Of a DNA stretch of 64,000 bases, positions 4,501 through 45,973 are shown one piece after another. The stretch covers positions 37,155 through 101,154 of the IMG/VR virus record IMGVR_UViG_3300020477_001611. The stretch is one strand, 5' to 3'. Source of the stretch: a virus. Under the pieces are notes generated by a model, which was not told where the DNA came from, searched no databases, and worked only from the letters and a program-made list of their open reading frames with translations. Made by a program: the position numbers and the translations under genes. Positions within the stretch are counted from its first letter, which is position 1; each line of letters begins with the position of its first letter.

Positions 4501-5964
4501 TTATAAATCTATCTTTAATTTAAATGTATAATCTTGGGCATTCGTTTTTTTGATAGGAGTGGCCAATTTTGCTATCCCGACAAGATTGTGTTCATCATCG
4601 TATACATTTATTTTAGAGATGTATGTTTGATCTTGATAGGAGGATGAGTAATTTGCAAAATTACCCGACACTGTATTTGCCAAGGAAACTTTGTTGTCTT
4701 CTATATAAGCTACCGAACTAGTTTGCTTGACGAAGGTCTTCTGGTAGTCACTCCCTGATACGAGCCCTGAGCGTTGAATAAACGTTGGATTGTTAGACCA
4801 ATTTAATTCGTTTTTGTTCGCATGGGCAAACATTGTTAAAGTGTTGATGGGGTTGGTACCTTGAAAAGAAAGCGTATATGAAGAACTAACGGCTGAAAAG
4901 CTTTGAGAAATCTCTGAATCTGTTTTTTTAATATAAGAATCATATGCTCCAAAATGGACCCATCGAGGATTATCTTTAAAGCCAGCCCTTAATGTGGTGG
5001 GATTCGGAGTTTCTATGGGACAAAGATATCCATCACTTACCTCATCGCTTAAACTGTAATTGCCTGTTACTAGCAGCATTCCTTCATTGTACATAACAAC
5101 GCCAATTGTACTAGAGTCGGAAGGCCCGTAAGTTTCTATTAACTCACCATTCTGGCGGCTATCTTTGGCGGTTGCTATAAGGGTGCCGGTAACATAGAAA
5201 TTTAACTCAACGCTTCCGGGCTTTATTTTTGTGCCTCGATAAATATAGGGAACTTGAAAAAGCGTCATATACTTTTGATAAGGCGCCGCGGCCAATTCTA
5301 TACTGCCATCTTTATCTGCATTGCTTGGATTAGCACTCGTTCCATTGATCGAATTAAAATATCTTTGTGGAAATGCAGCGTCAGCAGTGCCGGAAATATA
5401 ATATTTATTATAATCAAAAAAAGGGCTCATCGGGCGATAATAATCTATAACACTTTCTAAAGCTAACATCCTTCTAACGCTACCACTGAAAGCGAGGCCG
5501 GTTCCCCAAACAGACCCCGAGAGTTCAAAACTAGAATAGGGGGCTGATGATCCTGCGCCAACCAAAAATTCTCGCGTTATTGAAGACGACAAAGGATAGG
5601 CAAGATAAATATCGGCACCCTGACCTACTTGTGTATACCCTGACGGCTTATTAAAGTTAGATGGTAGATCTGCCGCGGCACTGATTAAATCATACTTAGA
5701 CTTGGAAGATGATGCATCTGTCACGAAAGTTATATTTTCAGGATTTTCATTTTTAGTTATAAAACCGTAAGCAAGATTATCTGCAATCAACTGTCGGTCA
5801 ACATTCAACTCATAAAGCGATATACTTCCACTGGGGACGAGATTTCCCTGACTTATTTGGTTATTGATATAAGCTTCATTCTGATAAAAGGTTACATCAT
5901 ACCTTGGATAGGTTTTAAGAGTGCTGTTAAAAAGATCATTAGGCCCGAATTTATATTTTGGCAT
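4501..5964 (-). CDS. Virion baseplate/tail structural protein; C-terminal domain paralogous to 5972..7066
   Basis: In the structural module; C-terminus NPTF...YISKINVYDDEHNLVGIAKLATPIKK. Confidence 0.6.
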   Translation of the reverse strand: MPKYKFGPNDLFNSTLKTYPRYDVTFYQNEAYINNQISQGNLVPSGSISLYELNVDRQLIADNLAYGFITKNENPENITFVTDASSSKSKYDLISAAADLPSNFNKPSGYTQVGQGADIYLAYPLSSSITREFLVGAGSSAPYSSFELSGSVWGTGLAFSGSVRRMLALESVIDYYRPMSPFFDYNKYYISGTADAAFPQRYFNSINGTSANPSNADKDGSIELAAAPYQKYMTLFQVPYIYRGTKIKPGSVELNFYVTGTLIATAKDSRQNGELIETYGPSDSSTIGVVMYNEGMLLVTGNYSLSDEVSDGYLCPIETPNPTTLRAGFKDNPRWVHFGAYDSYIKKTDSEISQSFSAVSSSYTLSFQGTNPINTLTMFAHANKNELNWSNNPTFIQRSGLVSGSDYQKTFVKQTSSVAYIEDNKVSLANTVSGNFANYSSSYQDQTYISKINVYDDEHNLVGIAKLATPIKKTNAQDYTFKLKIDL

Positions 5965-5971
5965 ATTTTCA

Positions 5972-7066
5972 TCAATAGTCTAAACGAACACGTATAGTCA
6001 CATCATTTGAAGTAGTCTTCTTGATGGGCTCACTTAATTTTGCAGTCGCGACTAACGCCCCCTGAGCATTGTACATTCCCACTGTTGTAATATAAGAAAA
6101 TGGAGGATTTTTAGGATCACTGGCTTTGACCCTAATTTGGCTCGCACTTAAATAGGTGGGGTTGCTGCTGAAATTAAATTCATTATGATTAGCTCTACAG
6201 AAATAAATTGTAGAATTCAATTCAGTTGTGTTGTTAAATTGAACGTTCTTAAGTCGATGAATCAGGCCGGCGTTCAAGACATCCATGGTACCAGTTATAA
6301 TACTGTTGTTGTAGCCGGTTACAACCCCCTCTACACTTGCTGAAATAAACTGCGATGTAGCCGTGCTTGAAACGTTGCGGCTCAAACTTTGAGAAACATC
6401 TAAAACCGCAATGCCCGCCTGATAATATAAAGTGCCAACGGCTGTTCCAGTTGCCGAGCCGACACGCAACGTAGAATATTCTCCTATTGGAGAATTAGTA
6501 TCGTTAAAACTAGATGTGGCGCCATAATCACCAATAGTGATGGTAGCCTCGCCATTGCCATCAAACGGAAGATTATAAGTTCCAGTTCCCAAAGTCAGGC
6601 GAAAAGTATCTTTTTGTATTTCATCTTTTGTTAATAATCTACTAAAATTAATAAACATGGGCGCTGTGATTTGACGCAAAGAGGTGTCATAACTGCTTGA
6701 AATGCGAAACTTATCGATTGAGCCCGTGGCGTCGTAGCCCATTAAAAGCTGCCCCATCTGGCTATAGATATTTTGCTTGTCCGTAGAGCCCGAAGAGATA
6801 GCCGCTGTGCCGGGTAAGCCGGCGACATTAGCAGAGGCTAAAAAATTAGTCTCATCAACGCCGAGTGTAACATCAAATAGGTGGTTTGCCGAAGAGCTTA
6901 AATAGGGGTAATCATAAATGGAGGTAAACAAGCCAGCACTATATGTCTTAAGATTCTCTCCGCTATAAGTGCCAGATATAACCGACCCTGTAATCGGAAT
7001 GTTCTCGTGAAGAAGAGTTTTGTTTGTAGTAACGTCATCTTTTGTTAATGGTTTTAAAGTCGTCAT
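5972..7066 (-). CDS. Virion baseplate/tail structural protein
   Basis: S/T/G-rich; C-terminus NPTY...YITTVGMYNAQGALVATAKLSEPIKK resembles the tail-collar fibre domain C-half. Confidence 0.6.
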   Translation of the reverse strand: MTTLKPLTKDDVTTNKTLLHENIPITGSVISGTYSGENLKTYSAGLFTSIYDYPYLSSSANHLFDVTLGVDETNFLASANVAGLPGTAAISSGSTDKQNIYSQMGQLLMGYDATGSIDKFRISSSYDTSLRQITAPMFINFSRLLTKDEIQKDTFRLTLGTGTYNLPFDGNGEATITIGDYGATSSFNDTNSPIGEYSTLRVGSATGTAVGTLYYQAGIAVLDVSQSLSRNVSSTATSQFISASVEGVVTGYNNSIITGTMDVLNAGLIHRLKNVQFNNTTELNSTIYFCRANHNEFNFSSNPTYLSASQIRVKASDPKNPPFSYITTVGMYNAQGALVATAKLSEPIKKTTSNDVTIRVRLDY

Positions 7067-7081
7067 ATTTTTTTTCCTACC

Positions 7082-8047
7082 TTACGAAGCTGCCCTTACG
7101 AATCTAAAGGGAATGTTAACGCTAATTCCCGTCTTATCTCCACGTACCCTAACTATAGCATCAATGGTTTTAGCGGTCGTATTTCCACTAGCCTTCTGAG
7201 TCGGGAAATAACTAGAGACATCCGTACCGATCGTGTCAAATAAATAATCGCTATTGGCAATATCAGAAGAGCCCCATAAAGAAAATTTAAGTCGTTGGCC
7301 GCGGGGTCCGGAAATTACTGAGTCTCCCTGAGATGCGTCCGGGGCAGATGTATAAAAATCAGCCGCACTTAAAACGTAAGTGGCTATATTGTTTGTATCG
7401 ATGAAAGAGGCGTCAATTGGATCTCCGTTGGGGTTAACAACCTTCCCGAGCCTATCATCAATTTCTAGAATATAGGTATCTTCAACCAGATCTGCTGGGA
7501 CGCTCGTATTCCACGATATGGCCGTTGTATCTAAGCCCTGATCTACAGCCACTGCAGTCGTGTAGGCCGTGGTGAATGAGGTGCCATCAATGAAGCCATC
7601 GGGAACAGTTTTCTGATTAGGGTCAGATGTGTCCCTATTTTCTGTATATTTCTTTACTGCGGTATCGTTAACCAACACCACAAACTGGTTAGATGTTCCA
7701 CCATTGTCAGTGGAGGTGGCATATGGCATTCCAACCATAGAGGTGGCGTTAATGCGAGCGACAGGCAAATAAAGCTGTTCATTCAGGCCCTTAAGAGTTA
7801 TTAATCTTTGCTTAATGGCCGCGGCAGCCTCGGGGATAGCCTCCAACACAGGAGTTTTTAAAATGTTCAAGTCGCGGTTTGCGCTGGACTTTGAAGTGTC
7901 ATAAAGTGAGTAGTTTATTTCGTCGTCGCCAAGAGCAAAACTAACTATTCTAAAACTTCCATCAGCCCGGGCTAACATCTTCCGGCCGACATCGGTTAGG
8001 ACAGCGTCTAAAATAATATCACCACTGTTGTCTAAAAAAGAACTCAT
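7082..8047 (-). CDS. Virion tail/baseplate structural protein
   Basis: N-terminus ILDAVLTDVGRKMLA...FALGDDE resembles the tail-collar fibre domain N-half. Confidence 0.6.
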   Translation of the reverse strand: MSSFLDNSGDIILDAVLTDVGRKMLARADGSFRIVSFALGDDEINYSLYDTSKSSANRDLNILKTPVLEAIPEAAAAIKQRLITLKGLNEQLYLPVARINATSMVGMPYATSTDNGGTSNQFVVLVNDTAVKKYTENRDTSDPNQKTVPDGFIDGTSFTTAYTTAVAVDQGLDTTAISWNTSVPADLVEDTYILEIDDRLGKVVNPNGDPIDASFIDTNNIATYVLSAADFYTSAPDASQGDSVISGPRGQRLKFSLWGSSDIANSDYLFDTIGTDVSSYFPTQKASGNTTAKTIDAIVRVRGDKTGISVNIPFRFVRAAS

Positions 8048-8076
8048 TTTTTTCCCCTTAATACGGTTATCACAAA

Positions 8077-8084
8077 TAAATAGT
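8077..8084 (-). promoter_or_regulatory. Candidate late promoter motif ACTATTTA
   Basis: In the 53-nt gap, about 30 nt upstream of the 8047 start; the same core recurs at 13803, 33022 and 62065. Confidence 0.45.
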
Positions 8085-8100
8085 CATTCAAAACTTATTT

Positions 8101-11085: not shown

Positions 11086-11088
11086 TGT

Positions 11089-12894: not shown

Positions 12895-12896
12895 TT

Positions 12897-13784: not shown

Positions 13785-13802
13785 TTAATAAACTCTTTCT
13801 TA

Positions 13803-13810
13803 TAATTAGC
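13803..13810 (-). promoter_or_regulatory. Candidate late promoter motif GCTAATTA
   Basis: Overlaps the stop of the giant protein, about 19 nt upstream of the 13784 start. Confidence 0.35.
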
Positions 13811-16800
13811 CATAATATGCTTTTTCCCACGATACATGATCTTTACATGGCATCCAATATTGACCCATAGCATGTACCTGCCCTTGACAGCCTTCGTTGG
13901 TGTAGCTCTCAGATGTTGCTATTGCAGCGTTTCGATCTTCATAAAGCTCTTCTGGCGGGATGCTGGCTAGTGGATCCTCTTCTTCCTCTGCCGGCTCCTC
14001 TTCTTCGTAAACACAACTGCCATCATCAACTGTTGCCTTTTCATTATAGTTGTTGGCGTTAGAATCCGTGCACCCATAGATGATTTCATCCTCAATGCCA
14101 GCCTCAAATGGGTCTTCCTCTTCGAAAGCGCCGAGGTCGGACAGGTCACCAGTAAAAAGCTCATCAGATCTTGAAGGAGGCATCTCATCTGCGCTATCCT
14201 CTAACACGCACTTGCAATTTTTACACACATAGCCGCCATCAGTATCGCACGTTCCAAGGGCTCCGTCACTGCTGCACTCCGCGTCGGGATTAGGCTCACA
14301 AGAAACCGTCACGTCGCTAGATAAGGCGCTCATGGTGGTCTTGCAGGTGTGACACTCTGGGCAGTCATCATCGTTCTTGCAAACCGGCTCTTCTTCTTCC
14401 CGTGGCGGCACATATGGTAGCCCGCACTTAATAACCAATTCTTCAAAAGATTGTCCCTGTTCTGGCGACAACTCTATCCCCAGTGATAAAAGCTCTTGTA
14501 AACGAGCCAACTCTTGCAGTTCGGGTGATGAACAAATTGCTTGTGTTGGCGCAGCGGTGTTTGTTGGCGCTGAGATGGTAAGTGGTTCGCCAAGGGCTGC
14601 TCTTTTCGCAATGACCTCTTCAGGTCTAATATAGCCACCACCACGAATATCTTTTATTCTATTGGGTGCATCGTTTCTGACCTCAAAACCGACTTCCATC
14701 TTACCTAGCTCGATCAACGAGAAATAATCATAGGGCCAATTATAGGAAAAGCGCTGGGCGATTGGATAACGATAAGCGGGCACCCCAGTCAATGCTGCTT
14801 GTGTAACATAATAATCGTATTCGGCTCGCTTTTTAATTTTGAAAATACGCCATCTTATATCTTTAGGTATCTTTTTGTCCCTAAATCCATTATATTGAAA
14901 AATTGTTGGTGATAACAATTCGCCATCCACCAATGGATGTTCTATAATAACAGTCTCAGTTTCGGGGGTAACAGCTTGGGAGGGCATCACCCCCTGCCAC
15001 CATTTTGATAGATCTGCCTGTGTTAGTGTAGAAGTAAACTCGCTAATATACATTGAAAATGGTGGATTAACATTGCCATATTCCTCCTTTGTAGTTGGCA
15101 CCCTTTTGGCCTGATCTCGTTTCCAGACGAAATCATAAATAGGGGGCACCACATACTTATCCATTTTCTTAATCATATCTGCAACCGAATTAGTCGTTAG
15201 GCGGTCCTGCCTTACATCGGCATAGCTTTTTTCAAAAATGTTAAATGGAATTTCAAAGTATGTTTCTTCACCAGTTTCACAATCTACATAAAAAGGTATG
15301 GCACATATTGCTTCTTCCACAATTTGTTCAGCCTTAAATCGCCCAATGGGCTCAGGTCGACTTGCAAAACCACAGGCTTCCACCAATGACCCTGTTAGTT
15401 CGCGGTTAATTGCATCTGGATATACGGAGTTTCCGCTCCACGAGGCCTTGCTCAGTTTCATGTTGAGGCGCGTGGCAGTGCCCGAAAGTTCTGTAGCTGC
15501 AACATCTGAAAACTGATGCCACATTCCCCTAGTACCGCACACGGTGCCCGCCGTGCCGATCGAGTGGGGATTTGGCTCGGCCGTTGGTGCGACTGGGTTG
15601 GCTGTGCTAGCATCACCATCTTTAAAGAAGTTTAATACAGGCGCCTCCCACTTTGTTCGTATTGTCCACCTCTTATCTGCATCAAGCTCAAACATGTCAA
15701 TACTTGCTGACAAAGCCATGAAGCTGGCCGACGAGGGTACCATGGAATTGCTGTTAATGGCAGTGGCACACGCATTATTTCCAGCGCCATTTAGCTCAGT
15801 CCAACTGTTTGAATTTCGTATGGTTGAATTGGCAATGATATCCGAAAATGAAAAAGAAGATTGGCCGACCTTTCCGCTACTTGGCAGTAAATTGGTGGGA
15901 TCGAACTCTAATGTCGCTCTTGTGTAGGCGGGGGCGGAATAATGGAACGAGGAGCCGCCGAAGACATCGCCAATGCAGGCGGCGGGGGCGCCGCAGCCAT
16001 AACAGTTGTTGGCGGCAACAAAATCAAAATACGCCGCTTGTCCCTCATATGCCATAAACATCACCCCGGGTGGGGCATGATGAATATAGGGATATGGTCC
16101 AAAAGCTGCGGGGTTTGAATATTGTACAAAAGAGACTGGCTTTGTTATTATAACGTCCATTGCAAACTTTTTGACGCCGGCGCTTGAACTCAATGGCCCT
16201 TCAAAGGTCCATGATGATTCTGGCGCAGATTTAAAAGTTGTTAGGCCATCTAGGAAAAAATTGGGCACTTCTGCAAAAAAATTATGAGCAGCGTACTGGT
16301 AAAGTCCATCTGTTTTATTGACGGCACCGGTGGTGTCTTGCACTATCGGCATCGGACTATGGGCCGAATAATAGCTGCCGCTACTGGGGCATATTTGAAA
16401 AATGTTGCCCACATATTCATGAGGGGCCAATATTGCATCAAAGGGTGCGCGTGATTCAAATTCTTGATCAATGCTTGCAGATGCGCGGCCGGCGATAGTC
16501 GATTTATAAGGGAAATCACAAGCAAGGCCGGCCTTGATGGAGTTATAGCCAATCCCGGGGGCCCAAAATGGCATTAAAGAAGTCTCATAAGTGGGAGAGT
16601 TTCCAAGCGGAATGCTGGACGGCGTATTTCCGGGCCCTTGGTCGTAGTCTGAATTGGCATAAGACTGAGAGAAAATCTGCGCCAACTGAACTGTTCTTTG
16701 TTGTGGGTAGAAACCATCCTTGGGCAAAATTTGCTTTACGACATCAAACGCCAGTCTTATGGCTGTCGGCTCTCCATAATAGTCTTTCAATTCCTGTAAG

Positions 16801-19800
16801 TAAGTTAATTTACTAGTAGTCGCATATCTTTCTATAGAATCTCTCCTAGATTCTGTATCTCCCGCAGGAGCACCGACGCCGCCATGGCCAGTAAAGCCGC
16901 TACCGGTCAGGGCGTATTCATATATATTGTTAACATAATTGCCGCCATGAGAAATATGCACTTCCCTAACAAAATTAGAAATTGTAAATTCGGGCATGAG
17001 GGAATAATCTTGCCCAATTAACTTTGCATCTTTTGAAAAATCATCGTAAGAGGTAAAAAAGGCACCAGTGCCAGCCTGAGCCTGTACCACATTCTTAGCG
17101 CGGCTTGTATCTAGTGTGAATGCATATCGAGAGTTTATTTCGCCGGCGACGATGGCGCCTTGGCCAGTAGAGCCTGTATTTCTCATTATGACGCCCGATT
17201 CTTCATGATCTGCTGCGGCGCCGGTCGTAGAAACATCCATAGGCCAGCCGCTGGCCGTTATATTGGTGCCAGCGATATCAGCAAGAACATTATCTTCGCG
17301 TATTGCGAGAAGATCGCTCTTCCAAAAAGAAACGTATTGTTCTCTTTCGCGTATTAAATTGCGGAAAACATTTTCATCCTTTGGAAATAGAACCTCAGAG
17401 TATAAAATGTTCTTCCACTTGCCGCTTAATTTATAAAAATCTGAATTTTGTAAATCTCTTGTAGGAGCGTTTAAATCAAAATTCTTATTTTCTATTGCAT
17501 TCTTTTCCTTGCTGTAGTCCCGAGCGAAATAATGATATTCGTTGCCAAAAGCATATTCTATGGTGCCCGTCACATCATCGATAGCCTGAATTACCTTTTT
17601 ATGTTTAATTGTAACGGGCGATTGCACTAAATCAGTGCGACTGTCAATTAGCTTATTTCGATTATCATCAAGCACTTTTCTCACATTTTGATAAAGACTG
17701 TATTTCCTTAAATCATTTGCCGCTTTTGTTTGACGCACCCGAAGTTGTTTCCAAGTCGGCCAACCATATGGACCATTATTGTTTAACAAAAAGGTATTGG
17801 TGGAAATAGCCTGATATTGCTGTGCGTGAGTTTCTCCAAGCGTATAAATATTAAAGTACGATGAGGTGGTGGAGGCAGTTGTAAATATATTACTAGCTGT
17901 ATCAAAAGTGCCTAAAACTATAGTATTATCTCCAACAAAAGAAACTCCTTGCGTATTGCCGCCATAAGTAGCAGCCTTTGCGCCCGGGACGGGGTACCAT
18001 GAGAAGTGGCCGCCGCTGATGAACTGGATGCTAGCTGAATATTCATAGCCATAAATTGGTGAATAATCACTTGCAGTAGCATCATTCTCAAACCCGTTTC
18101 CGGTTCCATATTCAGGGCCCGAACTTGTCAAAAGGCCCGGAGCGGTTGTAAGAAGTGCCTCGTTTGGATATCCCCTCTTTTGAGCAATCCAAGAGTCTGC
18201 TATCCAACGATACTGCACATCCGACTTGGGAATGCCGTGGCCCACATAGGCGTTGTCGTATACTGTCTTGGGAGATTCCAACGATGAGGATATCTGATAG
18301 CCCACGTTTCGCTGATTCTTTTGATAAGAGCCGCTTGGGGCCAACAAGACCGAATCGTAGCCGCCACTAAGAGCGTGCCTTGTTAGCAGTGTCTGCAGCG
18401 CATTTCTCACTACCAAGTTTCTGTAAGGAAGGGCATTGTAGACAGAATACTCTGCACTTTCCACATCAAGGGCGTTTTCTGCAGAAGTTTCGGGGCCGCC
18501 GGGTGCGGAGAACCTATTAACAATAATGCTATCAGTGCTGCCCGTTAAATCGCGGCGCAAGGCTGCTCGATCATCGAAAGTTATATTGGTTACAGTTTCT
18601 ATTGCGTCGTTAGTAACGCCGCTGCCGGTGGTACCCAGAGAGAGAATATAATATCTATTATTTTCGCGGCGCCCAGATGTTTGTACGATCTCGTAATTGT
18701 AATTATAGTTATTATAATTTATTCCAATTGAATTCGAAACTTTAATGTTTGCTATGTTTACTGGGCTTTTGGCGCCTGCCGCTCTTAAAAGAGTTCCCAC
18801 TGGGCGGTCTTTATCATATTCACCGTCAACTATTCTTGGATTCCTAAGCTCAAAGCCATCTGTTGCATGGTCGGCAAAGTTTAATTGATAGCCCTCTTTG
18901 CGAACTCTGGCGTCTCCAGACGAAGAATAGTTTAAAAGATTTCCATGTCTATATTGATAGCCGCCGACCTGTTCTTCGGTGTAAGTTCCTTGCATTGGCA
19001 CTTCTTTATCAAAATGATAAGAGTCAACATGGGCGTTAACAAGGTCGGCATTATTCCCCAAAGTCGTTGCCAATATTTGTTGATAAGCCGAGGGTGTCTC
19101 GCCCGATGCACTCAAAATGGTGAATGGCAAATAAGAGTAAGGTGGAAGTTGTGTTGAATCTTCGTTTGTTGAAACTGAAATTGGGAAACGGCGCCGCCCA
19201 TTAGAAGTTTCATCGCGTGAACCAGAATAAGTATAATACGGCGTATTATTAATGTTTTTAACCGCATTCGACAGGCCGGCACGAGATAGGATGGAAATTC
19301 CATCTGTTGCCGCCCTTTCAGAAAAAGTCCCTAAATAATAATTTGGTCGCGATTCATTGTTTAAATTCACGCCTGCGTGGAGAGATCGGTATGCAGCCAT
19401 ATCAAAATTGCTATAAGGCGTTGCGCTACGAGAGTAAACCATGGCTGCATTATTTTGTAAAGCATAGCGGCTGTGGTTAGCTGGTGCACTTACATTTAAA
19501 ATACCCGTTGAATCGCGGCGGGCGCTGAAGCGCCACCAGATACGACCCTCAGATTGATTTGTGACCACTGGGTCAGTAGGTGCCCTGATCTTACTAACCG
19601 TGGGGTAATCCTCTAATCGTGGCTCCCGTTGGTTGGGGGTGAGCCCCTTAGAACGCTGCATGTCTCTGGGGAATGGAGCATTTCCTGCGAATGAATTCCT
19701 AATTGGAATTTGAAGATTGGGATCCGCTCCGCTACCATCCTTTGGTGGTGGGGGTGGACTATCATCATCAAATTCGGGATCACCGCCTCCGCTGCCGTCG

Positions 19801-22800
19801 CCGCCTTGACCGCCTCCGCTCGAAGGTGATCCCTTGACTAAATCCAAATCTTGCAATTCTTTTATCTTTGTATATTTGTGTCTATATTTATTCCTCTCCA
19901 GAATATGATTTTCAATAACGCTGCGAGCCTTATCGGCCGCGTTCGCAGAGGCGGGTATCAAATTGTTTAAAACGCCGTCTAGGGCTCCATCAATCCATTT
20001 ATATAAATTGATATACTTTTCAACATCCGGATTGTTACTAATATTTTGGAAAAATAAATACCGCAACTTTTCCATAGCCTTATAGTTGGGCCGATACATG
20101 TTTACCGGTTCGCCAATTAAATTATTAAAATCACTAATCGATGCAAAAAAGCCCAACATCGCCTTAGAGATCGTATCGTACATACTGGCCTCGACGGCAA
20201 AGAAGTATTTATTTGGCCTTGATAGGCGTGTGAAAAGAGTGTCGTCTCGCGAAAGAACCTTTACCAAGTCTGAAGTATAAAGATTTTCAGGAAGTTGCTG
20301 ACGGCTGCTATCAATAAACTTAAAATCTACCACATTCGTAGAGGATTCACTAAACTCACTTCCTTGGCCGGCATAATTTGGCCCAACAAGATCAGAATAA
20401 TTGCCTAGGGGATATCGATTAACGGATCCTGTTGAGGAGCCAGAAGTGACATCTTTAATTAAAAATTTTCCGCTTGAGTCACTGCCCGTAACATTGTCAA
20501 AGTTCCAATACAACGCTAGCGTCTCTATTTTTGGAATATAAGTCCCCGAAAGAAGCCCCTCGTAAACAAAAGTATTCCTTTCGGGGTACAAACGCCCATA
20601 TGAACTTACGTCCATAGCGTGCTTTTGAATCTCTTCGTTGGTTAAATAATCATACCACACGCGGGTTGAGACAAGGCGCGTATTTGTTTCATTTTGAAGC
20701 GCGCCAGTAATGTTAGTCCGATCCGCCCCAAGATAAATACGCTTACTGGAGCCGGTCAAAAATGGCCCTGCAGTGTCCGCTACATTCACAGATGCTGAAA
20801 CAGAAAACTCATTTATTTTAGTACCCAAGCTATAATTGACGCCATAAAACTCGTAACTAGCTGTAGGGGAGGAGACTGCCTCAGAAGAAAATGGATATTT
20901 TTCTGGTCTTATTCTGAGAGCAAAATTCCACTTCTGATTTTCGTACACATTGTCATAGTAGGATGAAGTGAGGGTTGGAAACTCTCCCTGTGAAGATGTA
21001 ACATAAAAATAGGTTTTATTATTATTGTTGGTGTGTGCATATACCTTTAAGCCCGCAGGATCATTAGCAGGAACTGTAGTATCAGTAGAATTTGGAGTGG
21101 TGCTTGCACTATGGATACCAAACAAAGAAGAAGTTTTTAATTTTGGCAAATTCCCATCGGGAAAGTTTACAAATTTTGGAAAAAAGATTTCGGCTTCATA
21201 GGTAAAGGGAATATCAGCATCAGAGGCTGCGGGCAGATAACCATTATCCCCTGTACTACTAGCTGCCAAAGATGGATCAGGATATTGATAAACCACTGCT
21301 TGGCGGCTTGTTGAGCTTTTATAACCGGAAAGATCTATTACTTTATGCTTAATTGCGGTATTTTCACGATTTTCTCGTAAATCATATTCTTGATTATCAG
21401 CATACATGTTGAGGCGAATCACCTCATCATCCACACCAAAACACCGGAACAAGTTTCTAAAGGCTTTCTCGGTTCCCTTCGCTTTGTTAATATAGGCTAA
21501 ATTATTATAAATGTTTTGAAAAATTAAGTTTTTTACTTTGAAAACTTTTTCTTCATAAAGCCTTTTATCGTCTTTCGACAAGACCTCCTGAATTACCCCA
21601 GTGTCTATAAACATGCCGGGAATATCAAAACCAAAAGATTTTAAATTTCTATGAGTTTGTGGATTTGGTTTAATTTGAGATCCACTAACATAGGAGGGAT
21701 CCTTTAAACTGGTAAGGGCCCCGATTTGCCCATACAAAACGTCCAAATAGCTTCCCAAGGTCTGGCAGGTTTTTTCAATTAAATAACCATTCGCGGCGTC
21801 CTCGTCGCGGGCCCACTGCGGGATTGAATTATAAAGGCTTCCAAAATTATTTATATCATAGTCGGAACCAGACACAGTCATGTTGGTTTTATAAGTCACA
21901 ACATCTGGCTGTGTCGCATAAATAACCGGGTCTCCCTTTTCAGTTGCGACGCCACTCAATGTAATCGCACTTCCGGTTTGCCTAGAGTACGACGAATTAT
22001 AGCCAGACCAGACACCGTTGGTTAAGCGACCAGAATAATCTAGAACAACAGAATCCACCGAAGACGTAAGCGTTATTCCCTCATTAAATTTATAATAAAC
22101 ACTGAGTTTTAAGGGGTCATCATCATTGACCTTCGATGTGTCGGTATTACCACCGCCCCCAATATCAAAGAAGTAGTTACGTCCGATCTGCTGGGCGTTT
22201 CGCGCCTCTTTCCAATAACGAAACTCATCAATTGAGCCAGAAAGGCCGCCATAGCCTGTTAAGCCAAAAGTTCCGGCGAGGCTGTCTCCACAGGCGCCTA
22301 TCGTTCCAATTAGATTACCACTCATAGCTGTAGGCAACGCAGTTGACAAAGTAAAATTTACTTCCGTTTCAAAATTTCCATCAAGATAGGCAACAATCCT
22401 CATGTTTGTGGCCGAAGTTTCCTGCATAGTGATGGCGTAGTGATGCCATGTTGAATCTGCAAAAGTGGTAAGAGAGGGAAGGGTGAGATTGGTATAAAAC
22501 TTGTTTACCAAGGCCGGATTATACTGAGCGTAGGACAGCCAAAAGGTGTTGTTGTTTAAGCTATGGCGGATATACAACCCCAACTCGTGGCCCGGGTTGC
22601 CGTGGCTTGTTTGACCTCCACTAACATGAAATATCATTTCATCAGTAGTGCCGCCGGCTCCGACGAGTGGTGGAAAATCATCCTTCTTCATCCAAAACTC
22701 GATAGTGCTGCCGCTGGCCCAGTTAGCCTCTAGGCTGCCAACTTGATTTGTAGTCGTATCATAGATGAGATCCTTTGTAAAACCATCAAAATAAACATAT

Positions 22801-23228
22801 TGAGGATCGTTACTTAAACCAAAATTACCATTTGTAGCAACCTTTGTACCCCATGTCGGCGTGCCAAAGTTGGCATATCCCGTTTTGCGCGGATATTCGT
22901 TTTCTAAAACATATTGGCCGATCGGAGTTAAATCATTTTCAAATTTTAATCTTTCGGCTCGTGAGCCATCATAAGGGTATTGTCCCACAATACGATCGAC
23001 GGTATCAACGTAGTATCGTTTTGCAGATCCAAATTTGACAAAGTTGGCAGGGTCGCTGTAATCCAACTCTGGAATAAACTCAAACTTCTTTCTTGTGTAT
23101 TCTTTGACATAGGCTGCTGACTCAACATCTGTTGTAAAAGACTGCGCAGAGCCTGATTGTACAGAGCGCAGTTCGGTAGTCGGACTTAATTGTTCGGCCT
23201 TGTTTCGTTTAAAAAACTTTTTTGTCAT
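13806..23228 (-). CDS. Giant baseplate/tail-associated protein (3140 aa) with LamG/concanavalin-like domain(s) and a Cys-rich acidic C-terminus
   Basis: LamG pattern STIEFWMK...WHHYAIT...YLDG...GSIDEFRYW. KAKGTEKAFRNLFRCFG resembles the baseplate 'KGT' motif. Lies just downstream of gp6 and the 494-aa protein. Confidence 0.7.
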   Translation of the reverse strand: MTKKFFKRNKAEQLSPTTELRSVQSGSAQSFTTDVESAAYVKEYTRKKFEFIPELDYSDPANFVKFGSAKRYYVDTVDRIVGQYPYDGSRAERLKFENDLTPIGQYVLENEYPRKTGYANFGTPTWGTKVATNGNFGLSNDPQYVYFDGFTKDLIYDTTTNQVGSLEANWASGSTIEFWMKKDDFPPLVGAGGTTDEMIFHVSGGQTSHGNPGHELGLYIRHSLNNNTFWLSYAQYNPALVNKFYTNLTLPSLTTFADSTWHHYAITMQETSATNMRIVAYLDGNFETEVNFTLSTALPTAMSGNLIGTIGACGDSLAGTFGLTGYGGLSGSIDEFRYWKEARNAQQIGRNYFFDIGGGGNTDTSKVNDDDPLKLSVYYKFNEGITLTSSVDSVVLDYSGRLTNGVWSGYNSSYSRQTGSAITLSGVATEKGDPVIYATQPDVVTYKTNMTVSGSDYDINNFGSLYNSIPQWARDEDAANGYLIEKTCQTLGSYLDVLYGQIGALTSLKDPSYVSGSQIKPNPQTHRNLKSFGFDIPGMFIDTGVIQEVLSKDDKRLYEEKVFKVKNLIFQNIYNNLAYINKAKGTEKAFRNLFRCFGVDDEVIRLNMYADNQEYDLRENRENTAIKHKVIDLSGYKSSTSRQAVVYQYPDPSLAASSTGDNGYLPAASDADIPFTYEAEIFFPKFVNFPDGNLPKLKTSSLFGIHSASTTPNSTDTTVPANDPAGLKVYAHTNNNNKTYFYVTSSQGEFPTLTSSYYDNVYENQKWNFALRIRPEKYPFSSEAVSSPTASYEFYGVNYSLGTKINEFSVSASVNVADTAGPFLTGSSKRIYLGADRTNITGALQNETNTRLVSTRVWYDYLTNEEIQKHAMDVSSYGRLYPERNTFVYEGLLSGTYIPKIETLALYWNFDNVTGSDSSGKFLIKDVTSGSSTGSVNRYPLGNYSDLVGPNYAGQGSEFSESSTNVVDFKFIDSSRQQLPENLYTSDLVKVLSRDDTLFTRLSRPNKYFFAVEASMYDTISKAMLGFFASISDFNNLIGEPVNMYRPNYKAMEKLRYLFFQNISNNPDVEKYINLYKWIDGALDGVLNNLIPASANAADKARSVIENHILERNKYRHKYTKIKELQDLDLVKGSPSSGGGQGGDGSGGGDPEFDDDSPPPPPKDGSGADPNLQIPIRNSFAGNAPFPRDMQRSKGLTPNQREPRLEDYPTVSKIRAPTDPVVTNQSEGRIWWRFSARRDSTGILNVSAPANHSRYALQNNAAMVYSRSATPYSNFDMAAYRSLHAGVNLNNESRPNYYLGTFSERAATDGISILSRAGLSNAVKNINNTPYYTYSGSRDETSNGRRRFPISVSTNEDSTQLPPYSYLPFTILSASGETPSAYQQILATTLGNNADLVNAHVDSYHFDKEVPMQGTYTEEQVGGYQYRHGNLLNYSSSGDARVRKEGYQLNFADHATDGFELRNPRIVDGEYDKDRPVGTLLRAAGAKSPVNIANIKVSNSIGINYNNYNYNYEIVQTSGRRENNRYYILSLGTTGSGVTNDAIETVTNITFDDRAALRRDLTGSTDSIIVNRFSAPGGPETSAENALDVESAEYSVYNALPYRNLVVRNALQTLLTRHALSGGYDSVLLAPSGSYQKNQRNVGYQISSSLESPKTVYDNAYVGHGIPKSDVQYRWIADSWIAQKRGYPNEALLTTAPGLLTSSGPEYGTGNGFENDATASDYSPIYGYEYSASIQFISGGHFSWYPVPGAKAATYGGNTQGVSFVGDNTIVLGTFDTASNIFTTASTTSSYFNIYTLGETHAQQYQAISTNTFLLNNNGPYGWPTWKQLRVRQTKAANDLRKYSLYQNVRKVLDDNRNKLIDSRTDLVQSPVTIKHKKVIQAIDDVTGTIEYAFGNEYHYFARDYSKEKNAIENKNFDLNAPTRDLQNSDFYKLSGKWKNILYSEVLFPKDENVFRNLIREREQYVSFWKSDLLAIREDNVLADIAGTNITASGWPMDVSTTGAAADHEESGVIMRNTGSTGQGAIVAGEINSRYAFTLDTSRAKNVVQAQAGTGAFFTSYDDFSKDAKLIGQDYSLMPEFTISNFVREVHISHGGNYVNNIYEYALTGSGFTGHGGVGAPAGDTESRRDSIERYATTSKLTYLQELKDYYGEPTAIRLAFDVVKQILPKDGFYPQQRTVQLAQIFSQSYANSDYDQGPGNTPSSIPLGNSPTYETSLMPFWAPGIGYNSIKAGLACDFPYKSTIAGRASASIDQEFESRAPFDAILAPHEYVGNIFQICPSSGSYYSAHSPMPIVQDTTGAVNKTDGLYQYAAHNFFAEVPNFFLDGLTTFKSAPESSWTFEGPLSSSAGVKKFAMDVIITKPVSFVQYSNPAAFGPYPYIHHAPPGVMFMAYEGQAAYFDFVAANNCYGCGAPAACIGDVFGGSSFHYSAPAYTRATLEFDPTNLLPSSGKVGQSSFSFSDIIANSTIRNSNSWTELNGAGNNACATAINSNSMVPSSASFMALSASIDMFELDADKRWTIRTKWEAPVLNFFKDGDASTANPVAPTAEPNPHSIGTAGTVCGTRGMWHQFSDVAATELSGTATRLNMKLSKASWSGNSVYPDAINRELTGSLVEACGFASRPEPIGRFKAEQIVEEAICAIPFYVDCETGEETYFEIPFNIFEKSYADVRQDRLTTNSVADMIKKMDKYVVPPIYDFVWKRDQAKRVPTTKEEYGNVNPPFSMYISEFTSTLTQADLSKWWQGVMPSQAVTPETETVIIEHPLVDGELLSPTIFQYNGFRDKKIPKDIRWRIFKIKKRAEYDYYVTQAALTGVPAYRYPIAQRFSYNWPYDYFSLIELGKMEVGFEVRNDAPNRIKDIRGGGYIRPEEVIAKRAALGEPLTISAPTNTAAPTQAICSSPELQELARLQELLSLGIELSPEQGQSFEELVIKCGLPYVPPREEEEPVCKNDDDCPECHTCKTTMSALSSDVTVSCEPNPDAECSSDGALGTCDTDGGYVCKNCKCVLEDSADEMPPSRSDELFTGDLSDLGAFEEEDPFEAGIEDEIIYGCTDSNANNYNEKATVDDGSCVYEEEEPAEEEEDPLASIPPEELYEDRNAAIATSESYTNEGCQGQVHAMGQYWMPCKDHVSWEKAYYG

Positions 23229-24712
23229 TATCCCACCCTAAATGTAAAGGTCTCGTTAAGTTCTCGGTATCTGGTGCCATACTTATAAAGAAATTTAAGA
23301 CCATACTTAAAATCAGTCTCCAACATTGACATATCCAAATTAAAATAACTGCCGGAAACATCGTAAGACAACTTAGTATACGCTGGCTCTGAAGAGCTTC
23401 CAGTTCCGTAATTAATAATTGTTAGGTCATCGACCACTCGATAAAGCTTATAATACATTTCAGGTATAACGACCGATTTGGCATCTGTTGTCGCCACCGT
23501 ATAAACGTTAGGGCTCCAATTTTTGTTCCTTGTGTATAATCTAAAACGAGCATTTTCTTTTGTAGAATACTCTCGCTTTAAATTAGTAATTTTACAAACA
23601 TATGCTGGCTCCTCATCGTCGCCGCGGTCGTCAAATCGATTAACCTCTATTGATCCCGTAAAATATTGTGTATTTCTGTCGCCATCGTCGGCAGGCTGTG
23701 AGCCAGTGCTCCACACGTCATAAATTAATGAAGCTGTTGTATTCATATACACCGAAGCGGTATATATTCCTGTTAAATTTTGACCATTTATGTATGCCAA
23801 ACTTGCAGTAAAAGAAGAGCTAACGCTGCTTGTAAGAGAATTGGCATGTAAGGTAACAAACATGTAATCGCTTGTAAGCGTAGGAATGTTTTTTAAAGTG
23901 CCGCGAATACGATTATAAAAATATAAAGTATTTAAATTATCAGCAGCCGAGGCCAGCGAACTACTCGCATAAAAGTCGCCGCGATTGTCTGGACGGGAGT
24001 CGTTCCAGCGGGCCTCAATCACTGGCCTCTTGTAAAAATATTGACTATTGCGTGCAAAAAATCGCTTAGTATAATAAGACGTGGTGCTGCCCGACAATTC
24101 TTGAGAGCCTGTCAAATAGACTCCAAAGCCGTAACTGCTTGTATTAGTATTAAGCCACTCTTCCATTTGAGCAGTAATATCCATTTCAAGATCTTCTAGT
24201 CCCGTACTAAAAGTTTGTTTTGCAGAGGGTGCCAAATCATTTCCAAGAGACCCCGTTAAAAAGTCGCCACCCTCATTCTTCCAATCGTCTGAAGAAGCAG
24301 TGTTTTGTTGCCAATTGCTGGCTCCTAAATCTTTATAGTCCTCCATATCCAGACCGATACCCTCAGTCCACGAACTAGAAATAGCTGACGCAACCAAGGT
24401 GAAATCTCGTGGAGTGGTGGTACTGTGTTCAGCATTAAAAAGTCGCAAATAAAAATTTACATTTCCAGAGGTCGGAAGATCGCCGTTGTCGCGGCTCCCA
24501 CTAATACTGGCCGTGGTTGTTCCAACAACAGGGAAATCAATTAAAATTCTGGCGGCCTCTTGTGAAGATGTTGAACTTTGCGCATAGAGGTTGAAGACTT
24601 CTAAAATATCAGAAGCGCCCATATTAGAGCCAGTCCCTCTTGTAGACAAGTTGTTGGCATACGCATTAGTAATTGTATTATCTTTTGTGGCATAAAATCT
24701 TTTAATAGGCAT
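23228..24712 (-). CDS. Virion structural protein (494 aa), S/T-rich
   Basis: Shares 1-nt stop/start overlaps with gp6 and the giant protein; beta-rich composition. Confidence 0.6.
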   Translation of the reverse strand: MPIKRFYATKDNTITNAYANNLSTRGTGSNMGASDILEVFNLYAQSSTSSQEAARILIDFPVVGTTTASISGSRDNGDLPTSGNVNFYLRLFNAEHSTTTPRDFTLVASAISSSWTEGIGLDMEDYKDLGASNWQQNTASSDDWKNEGGDFLTGSLGNDLAPSAKQTFSTGLEDLEMDITAQMEEWLNTNTSSYGFGVYLTGSQELSGSTTSYYTKRFFARNSQYFYKRPVIEARWNDSRPDNRGDFYASSSLASAADNLNTLYFYNRIRGTLKNIPTLTSDYMFVTLHANSLTSSVSSSFTASLAYINGQNLTGIYTASVYMNTTASLIYDVWSTGSQPADDGDRNTQYFTGSIEVNRFDDRGDDEEPAYVCKITNLKREYSTKENARFRLYTRNKNWSPNVYTVATTDAKSVVIPEMYYKLYRVVDDLTIINYGTGSSSEPAYTKLSYDVSGSYFNLDMSMLETDFKYGLKFLYKYGTRYRELNETFTFRVG

Positions 24713-34281: not shown

Positions 34282-34484
34282 TAATTATCTTCAGCGGAAT
34301 CTTTATCATATTCAGAGTTGGAAATCTTAAAAGTTGGTGGATTTTCAACAACCAACTCTGAGTGGTTTTCCGCCACCAGCATAAAGTTAAAACTCTTCAA
34401 TATTGGTACAATATCCGTTTGCTCTAATAGCGATTTTTGTAGTGCCATCATAACAGCACCTAGGGCTTGATCTGATAATTTCAT
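34281..34484 (-). CDS. Hypothetical protein (67 aa)
   Basis: Start MKLSDQ overlaps the upstream TGA (ATGA); SD AGGAG. Confidence 0.6.
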   Translation of the reverse strand: MKLSDQALGAVMMALQKSLLEQTDIVPILKSFNFMLVAENHSELVVENPPTFKISNSEYDKDSAEDN

Positions 34485-45972: not shown

Positions 45973-45973
45973 T

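What the first reader, a model, noticed from the sequence alone, without database searches (positions are those of the whole stretch)
4501..24712. [S/T]-[G/A]-S tripeptide is strongly enriched in a subset of virion proteins: a candidate sequon for phage-encoded glycosylation
Seen (hand counts): 14 [ST][GA]S in the 494-aa protein (6 TGS, 3 SGS, 5 TAS), about 30 in the 3140-aa protein, 5 in the 364-aa and 4 in the 487-aa protein, plus many [ST]SS. A rough composition estimate predicts only 1-2 in the 494-aa protein, and I saw no reversed S[GA]T in it. I found none in gp6 (596 aa) and almost none in the 711/722/994-aa proteins. The hits are scattered across unrelated sequence rather than in tandem, so they are not a simple structural repeat. 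Inference: this is a recognition motif for post-translational modification of exposed virion proteins, most plausibly O-glycosylation by the glycosyltransferase island about 10 kb upstream. Together these would form a self-contained virion glycan-coat system.
Basis: partly seen in the sequence, partly recalled or inferred. Interest (0 to 1): 0.85.

Follow-up and report, generated by a model that had tools for sequence, protein, structure and literature searches.

The report
Ser/Thr-Gly/Ala-Ser motif on phage tails
A short, directional motif ([Ser/Thr]-[Gly/Ala]-Ser) is 4-8 times over-represented in the outward-facing tail and baseplate proteins of a whole clade of ocean and freshwater T4-like phages that all carry the same glycosyltransferase gene, so it may mark where these phages attach sugars to their own particles, but no sugar attachment has been shown.

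Summary
Enrichment in the 494-aa and 3140-aa proteins survives whole-protein and 10-40-residue block shuffles (p<=0.0003). It is weak for the 364-aa protein and not significant for the 487-aa protein.

The motif is sharply defined. In [ST]xS only x=G or A is clearly enriched. Position 3 is Ser rather than Thr, and T[GA]S outnumbers S[GA]T about 5:1. Flanks are hydrophobic and codons vary.

The motif recurs in over 100 homologues, in a second sub-clade (982 vs 224), and in phages immuto, Mel-JY01 and RM378. It is absent from T4, a cyanophage and three jumbo phages. An unbiased scan of all 8,000 tripeptides on independent data ranks SGS and TGS first (z 33 and 30; next 12.5).

Sites avoid gp6, portal and terminase, and concentrate in the outward-facing part of the tail sheath.

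Every complete clade genome tested carries an orthologue of the window's GT4. No GT4-lacking clade member was found, so co-occurrence reflects one clade, not independent events.

The sequon reading is plausible (about 0.4) but unproven. A clade-inherited structural feature remains a serious rival.

The scan noted the same motif in an overlapping window of this genome.

The parts
23228..24712 (-). 494-aa protein directly downstream of gp6. It has 14 [ST][GA]S sites. Its architecture is a CBM-like jelly roll (residues 1-237) followed by two Ig/FN3-like sandwiches.
   Evidence: Searches give 14 observed vs 1.7 expected. One search finds more than 3,600 homologues, one search gives a mean of 9.7 vs 1.8 in 120 homologues, and one search shows the conserved columns. 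One search is the AF2 model (pTM 0.82). One search matches 8wab (Z 17.5) and 7vbo (Z 13.9).
13806..23228 (-). 3140-aa giant baseplate/fibre protein with 30 sites scattered over residues 25-2614. It has a Laminin_G_3 domain at residues 171-348.
   Evidence: Searches give the counts and positions. One search gives the Pfam hit. Searches show that all 44 homologues are enriched (16-45 observed vs 5.5-10.9 expected). One search shows weak homology to immuto protein 161.
5972..7066 (-). 364-aa distal tail protein with 5 sites (weak enrichment). It belongs to a paralogous family shared with immuto 164/165, Mel-JY01 513-517 and RM378 p128.
   Evidence: p about 0.015.
4501..5964 (-). 487-aa paralogue of the 364-aa protein with 4 sites, all SGS. 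On its own it is not significantly enriched.
   Evidence: p about 0.1.
24712..26502 (-). gp6 baseplate wedge subunit. This is a motif-free internal control (0 sites) and marks a sharp boundary, because enrichment starts with the next gene.
   Evidence: phrog_219, E 4e-19; (gp6 53 vs 68, downstream ORFs 982 vs 224).
26519..26905 (-). gp25-like baseplate wedge protein with 0 sites.
   Evidence: PF04965.
56813..58090 (-). GT4-A, a 425-aa family-4 (GT-B) glycosyltransferase with an intact EX7E motif (E293...E301). It is a core gene of the clade and the proposed initiating protein O-glycosyltransferase.
   Evidence: PF00534, 54 bits; orthologues at 28-37% identity in immuto, Mel-JY01, RM378, LR756508, G006-G008; best solved relative is chlorovirus B736L, E 7e-9.
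54825..56816 (-). 663-aa fusion of a second GT4 (EX7E at E282...E290) with a GT2 domain (residues ~420-625). These are the proposed glycan-extending enzymes. In most relatives they are two separate genes.
   Evidence: (tandem GT4 pair plus GT2 in relatives; fused form also in G004).
34481..54828 (-). Nucleotide-sugar biosynthesis island. It contains three GDP-mannose-4,6-dehydratase-like enzymes, other SDR epimerases/reductases, split transketolase and E1-like ThDP enzymes, a B12-radical SAM enzyme, a cupin, a PfkB kinase, a cytidylyltransferase-like enzyme and a weak GT2 (37306-38079). No membrane proteins are present.
   Evidence: no transmembrane-like segments in 29 ORFs apart from one marginal N-terminal stretch; the number of SDR genes varies from 2 to 5 among relatives.

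Best explanation
The motif phi-[Ser/Thr]-[Gly/Ala]-Ser-phi (phi = hydrophobic) is proposed to be the acceptor signature of a phage-encoded cytoplasmic protein O-glycosylation system shared by a deep clade of T4-like phages. The clade is probably the 'Far-T4' phages.

Proposed mechanism (all inferred):
- Late in infection, the conserved GT4-A transfers a sugar from a nucleotide-sugar to a hydroxyl of the motif on selected virion proteins.
- The strict Ser at position 3 is the likeliest acceptor, with the position-1 Ser/Thr as the alternative.
- The neighbouring second GT4 and the GT2 extend the glycan.
- The variable nucleotide-sugar island supplies lineage-specific donors.

The likely targets are the outward-facing parts of the virion: the outer domains of the sheath, a neck protein, and the proteins distal to gp6 in the baseplate and fibres.

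Shown here: the motif, its specificity, its distribution among proteins and phages, and the conservation of the GT genes. Inferred: every biochemical step, including that any protein is glycosylated at all.
For: 1. The motif is real, narrow and directional. In [ST]xS only G (O/E 5-8) and A (O/E 2.6-4.5) are clearly enriched. The Ser:Thr ratio at position 3 is 71:16, 82:9, 54:8 and 36:10 in four phages. It survives local-composition shuffles.

2. It was rediscovered without bias. SGS and TGS rank first and second of 8,000 tripeptides (z 33 and 30, next 12.5) in 105 non-redundant proteins from a different sub-clade.

3. It is confined to a subset of virion proteins. Other ORFs pool to an O/E of about 1. 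gp6 gives 53 vs 68, while the genes just downstream give 982 vs 224.

4. Within the sheath, the outer region (residues 101-750) has 13 vs 2.4 and the conserved core has 0 vs 0.5.

5. It is not a generic property of beta-rich phage proteins. T4, cyanophage S-H9-1, Vibrio phage 2.275.O, Salicola SCTP-2 and LR756511 show none.

6. It tracks a GT4-A orthologue. The orthologue is present in all complete clade genomes tested (G001-G007), immuto, Mel-JY01 and RM378, and absent from the motif-negative outgroups. RM378's most enriched proteins have no detectable homology to the window's.

7. GT4-A is about as conserved as gp6 (34-37% vs about 33% identity), whereas the sugar genes vary. This suggests a core virion-related role.

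8. Other acceptors look less likely. The island has no flippase, polymerase or priming transferase and no membrane protein. Four complete relatives lack any ThyA-family enzyme, which known DNA glycosylation routes need.

9. There is precedent. Mycobacteriophage virions are glycosylated by phage GTs (cited), and the closest solved relative of GT4-A is a chlorovirus GT.
Against: - There is no direct evidence of any glycan on any protein.
- All motif-positive phages form one clade, as judged by gp6 and homologous tail modules. The GT-motif association may therefore be one inherited state, not repeated co-evolution.
- LR756508 has a GT4 orthologue but only marginal enrichment.
- About two-thirds of the sites in the giant-protein family are positionally conserved or semi-conserved. 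Lineage-specific sites alone give an O/E of only about 1.3. Several sites are among the most conserved residues of the 494-aa family, for example the invariant T437-G438. This pattern is as typical of structural residues as of acceptor sites.
- Substitutions at position 1 include Val and Ile, and at position 3 include Ala and Gly. Shape may matter as much as the hydroxyl.
- Many sites lie in or at the ends of beta-strands with hydrophobic flanks. To my knowledge, most characterised bacterial cytoplasmic O-glycosyltransferases act on disordered segments.
- The GT4s could instead modify a host glycan using host machinery.
Confidence: 0.4

Rival explanations
1. The motif is a clade-inherited structural feature. 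Under this reading, phi-[ST]-[GA]-S-phi is a preferred way of building strand ends, bulges or tight sheet packing in beta-sandwich modules. These modules spread by duplication through the tail, baseplate and decoration proteins of this clade. The motif is kept by purifying selection on folding or stability, and the GT genes are unrelated passengers of the same lineage.
For: - Many sites are strongly conserved columns.
- About two-thirds of the giant-family sites are shared by at least 4 of 30 homologues.
- Sites sit at strand starts and ends or inside strands of a confident model.
- The hydrophobic flanks fit an amphipathic strand.
- Substitutions such as T to V/I and S to A/G look steric.
- The enriched proteins of this phage, immuto and Mel-JY01 are homologous and syntenic.
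- There is mild clustering at 9-17 residues, roughly one hairpin.
Against: - The motif occurs in several different folds and in proteins with no detectable homology, namely RM378 p077, p078, p082, p083 and p085.
- Equally beta-rich Ig-, CBM- and fibre-type proteins of T4, a cyanophage and jumbo phages show none. A purely physical preference should not stop at a clade boundary.
- Ser is strongly preferred over Thr at position 3, although Thr is generally the better strand former (general knowledge).
- No internal repeat or fixed structural register was found.
Confidence: 0.3
2. The motif is recognised by a different clade-specific trans-acting factor. This could be another modification enzyme (for example a kinase, an acyl- or acetyltransferase, or a radical-SAM enzyme), or a dedicated tail-protein chaperone that binds extended phi-[ST]-[GA]-S-phi segments during folding.
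For: The clade-restricted, protein-selective and directional pattern argues for some trans-acting recogniser. Hydrophobic flanks are typical of chaperone-binding segments (general knowledge). Many clade-specific genes of unknown function exist, so the GT4 is not the only candidate.
Against: No candidate enzyme or chaperone was identified. The GT4 pair is the only conserved modification machinery found here next to a large donor-supply island.
Confidence: 0.15
3. The GT island acts on something other than virion proteins, either the host cell envelope (for example superinfection exclusion) or phage DNA. The motif would then be unrelated to it.
For: Most phage GT and sugar islands are interpreted this way in the literature. 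The closest NCBIfam and PDB relatives of the GTs are small-molecule, exopolysaccharide and teichoic-acid enzymes.
Against: - No flippase, polymerase, priming transferase or any membrane protein is encoded in the island.
- Four complete relatives have no ThyA-family hydroxymethylase or hydroxylase, and no Tet/JBP match was found. That control rang nowhere, so the Tet/JBP result is weak.
- GT4-A is a vertically conserved core gene, not a patchy accessory gene.
Confidence: 0.15

Closest known systems
Mycobacteriophage virion glycosylation (Che8, Corndog, Myrna; Freeman et al. 2023, as cited in PMC12619734)
   Same: Phage-encoded glycosyltransferases would decorate the phage's own structural proteins in the cytoplasm, giving a glycan coat on the particle.
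   Different: In mycobacteriophages the glycans sit on C-terminal ends of capsid and tail-tube subunits. Here the candidate sites are internal and scattered, and they lie in the outer domains of the sheath, the neck and the distal baseplate proteins. The capsid and tube proteins have no Ser/Thr-rich C-terminal tails. GT4-A has no mycobacteriophage orthologue at E<=1e-8 among 50,697 phage records. Glycosylation is demonstrated there and only inferred here.
Chlorovirus-encoded capsid glycosylation (PBCV-1 type) and the chlorovirus GT B736L (PDB 3oy2)
   Same: This is a virus-encoded glycosylation system that is independent of host membranes. B736L is the closest solved relative of GT4-A.
   Different: The similarity is weak (E 7e-9, C-terminal domain only). 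To my knowledge, chlorovirus capsid glycans are N-linked at unusual sequons, and B736L's acceptor is unknown.
GtfA/GtfB O-GlcNAc transferase of serine-rich repeat adhesins (GT4 family)
   Same: It is a cytoplasmic GT4 enzyme that glycosylates Ser in Ser-Ala/Ser-Thr-rich sequence, using a tandem pair of GT4-fold proteins followed by extending GTs (own knowledge).
   Different: Both phage GT4s keep the EX7E catalytic motif, so neither looks like the inactive GtfB partner. GtfA is not among the PDB sequence hits. The substrates here are folded beta-rich proteins with isolated tripeptides, not long disordered dipeptide repeats.
Autotransporter heptosyltransferases (AAH/TibC) acting on AIDA-I/TibA
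   Same: They carry out cytoplasmic O-glycosylation of Ser/Thr in beta-structure-forming segments of surface-exposed proteins (own knowledge). The window's island includes a kinase plus nucleotidyltransferase pair of the heptose-activation type.
   Different: The enzyme family is different (not GT4), and no such enzyme was detected here. The acceptors there are regular beta-helix repeats, which are not seen here.
Bacteroidota general O-glycosylation sequon D-[ST]-[AILVMT]
   Same: It is a three-residue O-glycosylation sequon, and some hosts of this clade are Bacteroidota or Rhodothermota.
   Different: That sequon is not enriched in the motif-rich proteins (21 vs 22.8). Charged residues are strongly depleted at position -1. 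To my knowledge that system works in the periplasm, whereas virions assemble in the cytoplasm.

Membership tests
T4-type contractile-tail phage (baseplate module) | gp6 and gp25 baseplate wedge homologues, a tail sheath, and gp23-type capsid, portal and large terminase proteins | tested here: met
   gp6 matches phrog_219 (E 4e-19). gp25 matches PF04965. Sheath, major head protein, portal and terminase are identified on the same contig. The sheath core aligns to T4 gp18 residues 318-652.
Far-T4 phage clade (RM378-related) | Phylogenetic placement of the major capsid protein (g23) with RM378 and Far-T4 contigs; PhoH present | tested here: inconclusive
   The capsid, sheath and two tail proteins have their best cultured matches in RM378 (MCP 39% identity). 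The GT4 orthologue is shared with RM378. A PIN-PhoH gene is present. No g23 tree was built, so the assignment is an inference from PMC4360716.
CAZy GT4 / Pfam Glycos_transf_1 glycosyltransferases | Glycos_transf_1 domain above the Pfam cut-off | tested here: met
   GT4-A scores 54.0 bits and the GT4 domain of the 663-aa fusion scores 33.2 bits, against a cut-off of 26.4.
CAZy GT4 / Pfam Glycos_transf_1 glycosyltransferases | EX7E catalytic or donor-binding motif in the C-terminal Rossmann domain | tested here: met
   E293-x7-E301 in GT4-A and E282-x7-E290 in the second GT4 lie within the aligned EGFGL block.
Phage-encoded virion glycosylation (mycobacteriophage type) | Glycans demonstrated on virion proteins | not testable with these tools
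   This needs glycoprotein staining or mass spectrometry of virions.
Phage-encoded virion glycosylation (mycobacteriophage type) | Acceptor sites in C-terminal extensions of capsid and tail-tube subunits | tested here: not met
   The capsid and tube C-termini are not Ser/Thr-rich, and the tube has 0 motif sites. The candidate sites are internal.
Phage-encoded virion glycosylation (mycobacteriophage type) | Glycosyltransferases orthologous to those of Che8, Corndog or Myrna | tested here: not met
   tblastn of GT4-A against 50,697 phage records at E<=1e-8 returns only immuto, Mel-JY01, LR756508, RM378 and TJE1.
GtfA/GtfB serine-rich-repeat glycosylation | One catalytic GT4 paired with a catalytically dead GT4-fold partner; substrate made of long Ser-rich dipeptide repeats | tested here: not met
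   Both GT4s keep EX7E. There are no tandem or internal repeats in the substrates. GtfA is not among the PDB sequence hits.
Bacteroidota O-glycosylation sequon | D-[ST]-[AILVMT] enriched at candidate sites | tested here: not met
   21 observed vs 22.8 expected in the six motif-rich proteins. Charged residues at -1 are at 0.14-0.37 times background.
Phage DNA glycosylation (5hmC, 5hmU or 5hoC routes) | A ThyA-family hydroxymethylase or hydroxylase that creates the DNA acceptor | tested here: not met
   PF00303 is absent from the window's contig and from four 100%-complete relatives, and the control genomes rang. The requirement is taken from PMC13326640. The Tet/JBP search also found nothing, but its control rang nowhere.

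The most novel reading that the evidence does not exclude
An entire, globally abundant clade of T4-like phages (thousands of marine and freshwater metagenomic relatives, plus cultured phages of Flavobacterium, Microcystis and Rhodothermus) uses a core, vertically inherited GT4-GT4-GT2 module to O-glycosylate its own tail, neck and baseplate proteins. Glycosylation would occur at a defined sequon, phi-[S/T]-[G/A]-S-phi, with lineage-variable sugars supplied by a swappable nucleotide-sugar island. To my knowledge this would be the first sequon for phage-encoded protein glycosylation, and the first evidence of a glycan-coated virion outside actinobacteriophages.
Probability: 0.35. Interest if true: 0.85.

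Novelty: new variant of a known kind. Interest (0 to 1): 0.7.

Why it matters
If the motif is a sequon, glycan-coated virions would be common in the ocean rather than a peculiarity of mycobacteriophages.

- Phage glycosylation sites would become predictable from sequence alone.
- The large, puzzling sugar islands of marine phages would gain a concrete function.
- A variable glycan coat on sheath and baseplate could affect host recognition, protease resistance, sticking to marine gels and particles, and decay rates of abundant phages.
- A three-residue tag with a soluble cytoplasmic transferase could also be a useful glyco-engineering tool.

If the motif is structural instead, it is still an unusually sharp, clade-specific sequence signature. 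It marks the outward-facing parts of the virion and could be used to annotate them.

The hypothesis is directly testable, because three clade members are in culture.

Tried and rejected
- **Local composition or low complexity:** rejected by block shuffles and Markov expectations and by the class table.
- **A DNA-level word:** rejected because codons vary and both Ser codon families are used.
- **An internal structural repeat:** self-BLAST of the giant protein finds none, and spacing shows only mild clustering at 9-17 residues.
- **Motif number maintained with free positional turnover:** I first read this way. With a tolerance of +-6 columns, about two-thirds of the sites are shared, and lineage-specific sites give an O/E of only about 1.3. 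The claim is withdrawn.
- **Generic property of beta-rich phage tail proteins:** rejected by T4, cyanophage S-H9-1, Vibrio phage 2.275.O, Salicola SCTP-2 and LR756511.
- **Any GT4 is sufficient:** Tetrasphaera phage TJE1 has a distant GT4 (24% identity) plus sugar genes but no enrichment (23 vs 20.6). Only the orthologous GT4-A tracks the motif.
- **GtfA/GtfB-like active/inactive pair:** rejected.
- **Late-promoter timing of the GT genes:** TATAAATA is not enriched (10 vs 6.2) and mostly falls inside genes, so this is uninformative.
- **Searches that found nothing:** PHROGs and Pfam find nothing for the 494-, 364- and 487-aa proteins. tblastn of the 494-aa protein against cultured phages finds nothing at 1e-5. 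PDB sequence searches for the 494- and 364-aa families find nothing.
- **Literature:** Freeman et al. 2023 could not be opened. Searches found no report of this motif or of virion glycosylation in this clade.


Full report
**Setting.** All genes in the window lie on the minus strand. The window is bases 37155-101154 of a 101-kb IMG/VR viral contig estimated to be 41% complete. The phage is a T4-type myovirus.
- gp25 (26519-26905) and gp6 (24712-26502) are recognisable.
- The upstream part of the contig encodes the tail sheath, a gp13-like neck protein, the major head protein, portal and terminase.
- The nearest cultured relatives by gp6 are Flavobacterium phage immuto (33% identity), Microcystis phage Mel-JY01 (32%) and an uncultured 484-kb phage.
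- Capsid, sheath and two tail proteins also match Rhodothermus phage RM378, the classical 'Far-T4' phage (PMC4360716). I therefore regard the lineage as Far-T4-like, but I built no tree.

| Protein | [ST][GA]S observed | Expected from shuffles |
|---|---|---|
| 494 aa | 14 | 1.7 |
| 3140 aa | 30 | 7.3 |
| 364 aa | 5 | 1.5 |
| 487 aa | 4 | 1.5 |
| gp6, 994 aa, 734 aa | 0 each | about 0.8-1.3 |
| 711 aa | 1 | 0.9 |

The enzymes of the sugar island have essentially none. Shuffling within blocks of 10-40 residues leaves the two large signals at p<=0.0003, the 364-aa protein at about 0.015 and the 487-aa protein non-significant. The sites are scattered, the giant protein has no internal repeat, and the motif uses both Ser codon families. 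The signal is therefore at the protein level and is not local composition.

**How specific the motif is.**
- Among all triplets of S, T, G and A, the class [ST][GA][ST] is the most enriched in both unrelated proteins, and TGS is the top tripeptide in each.
- Across the motif-rich proteins of four phages, [ST]xS is clearly enriched only for x=G (O/E 5-8) and x=A (O/E 2.6-4.5). Position 3 is Ser rather than Thr at 71:16, 82:9, 54:8 and 36:10. The non-palindromic T[GA]S outnumbers S[GA]T about 5:1.
- The flanks are shared. Position -1 is hydrophobic (1.6-1.8 times background) and almost never charged (0.14-0.37 times). Position +1 is hydrophobic or aromatic and almost never Pro.
- In a strand, this puts phi, G/A and phi on one face and the two hydroxyls on the other.

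**Replication on independent data.**
- The 494-aa protein has more than 3,600 metagenomic homologues. In 120 of them, at about 50% identity, the mean is 9.7 sites vs 1.8 expected.
- All 44 long homologues of the giant protein are enriched, with 16-45 observed vs 5.5-10.9 expected.
- In 80 related marine loci, only these two families are enriched. All other ORFs pool to 326 vs 291.
- A second, immuto-like sub-clade (80 further loci) shows 982 vs 224 in the ORFs downstream of gp6, 53 vs 68 in gp6 itself and 49 vs 58 upstream.
- An unbiased scan of all 8,000 tripeptides on 105 non-redundant proteins of that sub-clade ranks SGS (276 vs 47.5, z 33) and TGS (226 vs 38.3, z 30) first. The next word is at z 12.5. 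This removes the concern that the motif was picked after the fact.

**Which proteins carry it.**
- The 494-aa protein folds confidently (pTM 0.82). It has an N-terminal jelly roll resembling polysaccharide-binding modules (8wab Z 17.5, 7vbo Z 13.9) and two Ig/FN3-like sandwiches.
- The giant protein contains a LamG domain.
- Upstream on the contig, a 1038-aa tail sheath has 13 sites vs 2.7 expected, and a 431-aa gp13-like neck protein has 5 vs 1.0.
- In the sheath, all 13 sites lie between residues 142 and 677. The C-terminal part, which aligns to the conserved inner core of T4 gp18 (residues 318-652), has none. The outer region gives 13 vs 2.4 and the core 0 vs 0.5. In T4 the N-terminal domains of gp18 face outward (established knowledge).
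- The three sites of the capsid protein all fall in its insertion.
- The motif therefore marks outward-facing, lineage-specific parts of the virion across several folds.

**Conservation.** In the 494-aa family, six or seven sites are strongly conserved columns: query positions 27, 82, 153, 318, 352 and 437, with T437-G438 invariant. For the giant family I first thought sites turned over freely. With a tolerance for alignment error, about two-thirds are shared by at least 4 of 30 homologues, and lineage-specific sites alone give an O/E of only about 1.3. The enrichment is therefore carried mainly by conserved and semi-conserved sites. That fits either a functional acceptor or a structural residue.

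**Controls outside the clade.** T4 shows no enrichment in 22 structural proteins, including gp7, gp10, gp12, gp18, gp34-37, wac and Hoc. Cyanophage S-H9-1 shows none either, including a 3530-aa giant protein at 12 vs 7.0. Vibrio phage 2.275.O (18 vs 17.2, including a 3771-aa protein at 5 vs 5.2), Salicola phage SCTP-2 (12 vs 9.9) and LR756511 (9 vs 8.5) are likewise flat. The motif is therefore not a general property of beta-rich phage tail proteins.

**The glycosyltransferase link.**
- The window's 34.5-58.1 kb region is a nucleotide-sugar island. It contains GDP-mannose-dehydratase-like and other SDR enzymes, ThDP enzymes, a B12-radical SAM enzyme, and a kinase with a nucleotidyltransferase. 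It ends with a GT4-GT2 fusion (54825-56816) and a GT4 (56813-58090), with a weak GT2 at 37306-38079.
- Both GT4s keep the EX7E motif.
- Five near-complete marine relatives each have two tandem GT4s, four of the five have a GT2, and they have 2-5 SDR genes.
- Orthologues of GT4-A (28-37% identity) occur in immuto, Mel-JY01 (as two adjacent ORFs), LR756508 and RM378, and in both complete genomes of the second sub-clade. They are absent from T4 and S-H9-1. No orthologue was found in the other three outgroups at E<=1e-8.
- Immuto and Mel-JY01 are strongly motif-positive downstream of gp6, for example 53 vs 12 and 13 vs 2.3.
- RM378 is positive in a cluster of proteins, p077-p089, with O/E of 4-10. 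Five of these (p077, p078, p082, p083 and p085) have no detectable homology to the window's proteins.
- TJE1, which has only a distant GT4, is negative.
- LR756508 is only marginal.
- GT4-A is about as conserved as gp6, whereas the sugar genes vary. This is the behaviour of a core gene.

**Other possible acceptors.** The island has no multi-pass membrane protein, so it has no flippase, polymerase or priming transferase. Four complete relatives lack any ThyA-family enzyme. The known routes to glycosylated pyrimidines in phage DNA need such an enzyme (PMC13326640). A Tet/JBP search was also negative, but its control rang nowhere. These results favour a soluble cytoplasmic acceptor without proving that it is protein.

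**Weighing.** I commit to the sequon reading at about 0.4.
- In favour: the motif's narrow definition, directionality, protein selectivity, restriction to outward-facing regions, clade boundary and perfect association with a core GT4 all point to a trans-acting recogniser. The GT module with its donor island is the only such machinery found.
- Against: there is no direct evidence. The association is phylogenetically a single event. One GT4-positive phage has a weak signal. Conservation and substitution patterns (T to V/I, S to A/G) fit a structural role equally well.
- The structural rival (0.3) has difficulty explaining why the preference stops at the clade boundary and appears in unrelated folds.
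- A different modification or a chaperone (0.15) cannot be excluded.

**Comparison with known systems.**
- Virion glycosylation by phage GTs is established in mycobacteriophages (cited). There it is on C-terminal tails of capsid and tube, which this phage lacks, and the GTs are not orthologous.
- The closest solved relative of GT4-A is a chlorovirus GT.
- The GtfA/GtfB parallel fails on the inactive-partner criterion.
- The Bacteroidota sequon is not enriched.
- No paper in the held library reports this motif or glycosylated virions in this clade.
- If true, this would be a new variant of a known kind of system, with what would be, to my knowledge, the first defined sequon.

Noticed in passing
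window 23228-24712 (-): The protein directly after gp6 has an N-terminal jelly roll that closely resembles chondroitin-sulfate- and alginate-binding carbohydrate-binding modules (Z 17.5 and 13.9). It belongs to a family of more than 3,600 marine metagenomic proteins with no annotation. It is a candidate polysaccharide-binding baseplate or receptor-binding protein. Some homologues (about 780 aa) carry an extra LamG domain.
   Followed up: partly
G000:C1:16676-19792 (upstream of the window): The tail sheath is 1038 aa. That is about 390 residues more than T4 gp18, and all the extra sequence lies in the outward-facing N-terminal part. RM378's sheath (742 aa) lacks this extension and is not motif-enriched.
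   Followed up: partly
window 54825-58090 (-) and relatives G001-G007: GT4-GT4-GT2 is a conserved core module of the clade, fused as GT4+GT2 in this phage and in G004. The adjacent nucleotide-sugar genes vary in number and type between relatives (2-5 SDR genes). The pattern is constant transferases with swappable donors.
   Followed up: partly
PP395634.1 (Mel-JY01) 83444-84917: The GT4-A orthologue of Microcystis phage Mel-JY01 is split into two adjacent ORFs (198 and 313 aa) near the boundary between the two Rossmann domains, yet the phage keeps strong motif enrichment. This could be a functional split GT-B enzyme, a recent break or a sequencing error.
   Followed up: no
LR756508.1 (L093) 21884-41868: This uncultured 484-kb phage has a close gp6 and a GT4-A orthologue, but only marginal motif enrichment downstream of gp6 (about 9 vs 4). 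It is a partial exception to the association. Its proteins are poor in Ser/Thr, so statistical power is low.
   Followed up: partly
window 34481-58090 (-): None of the 29 ORFs of the sugar/GT island has a convincing transmembrane segment. There is no flippase, polymerase or priming phosphoglycosyltransferase.
   Followed up: yes
window 60077-63112 (-): A PIN-PhoH fusion protein, a ClpP-like protease and an adenylosuccinate synthetase lie just upstream of the island, after a PD-(D/E)XK nuclease at 58081-58896.
   Followed up: no
window 13806-23228 (-), C-terminus: The giant protein ends with a weak match to DUF3721 (residues 3113-3131, below the cut-off). I recalled this domain as cyanophage-associated, but did not check that here.
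   Followed up: no
window 8101-12894 (-): The 994-aa and 601-aa proteins sit in the middle of the motif-rich module but have 0 and 1 sites. If they shared the 4-8-fold enrichment, about 5-6 sites would be expected. Virion proteins therefore fall into two distinct classes. Their folds and locations are unknown.
   Followed up: no
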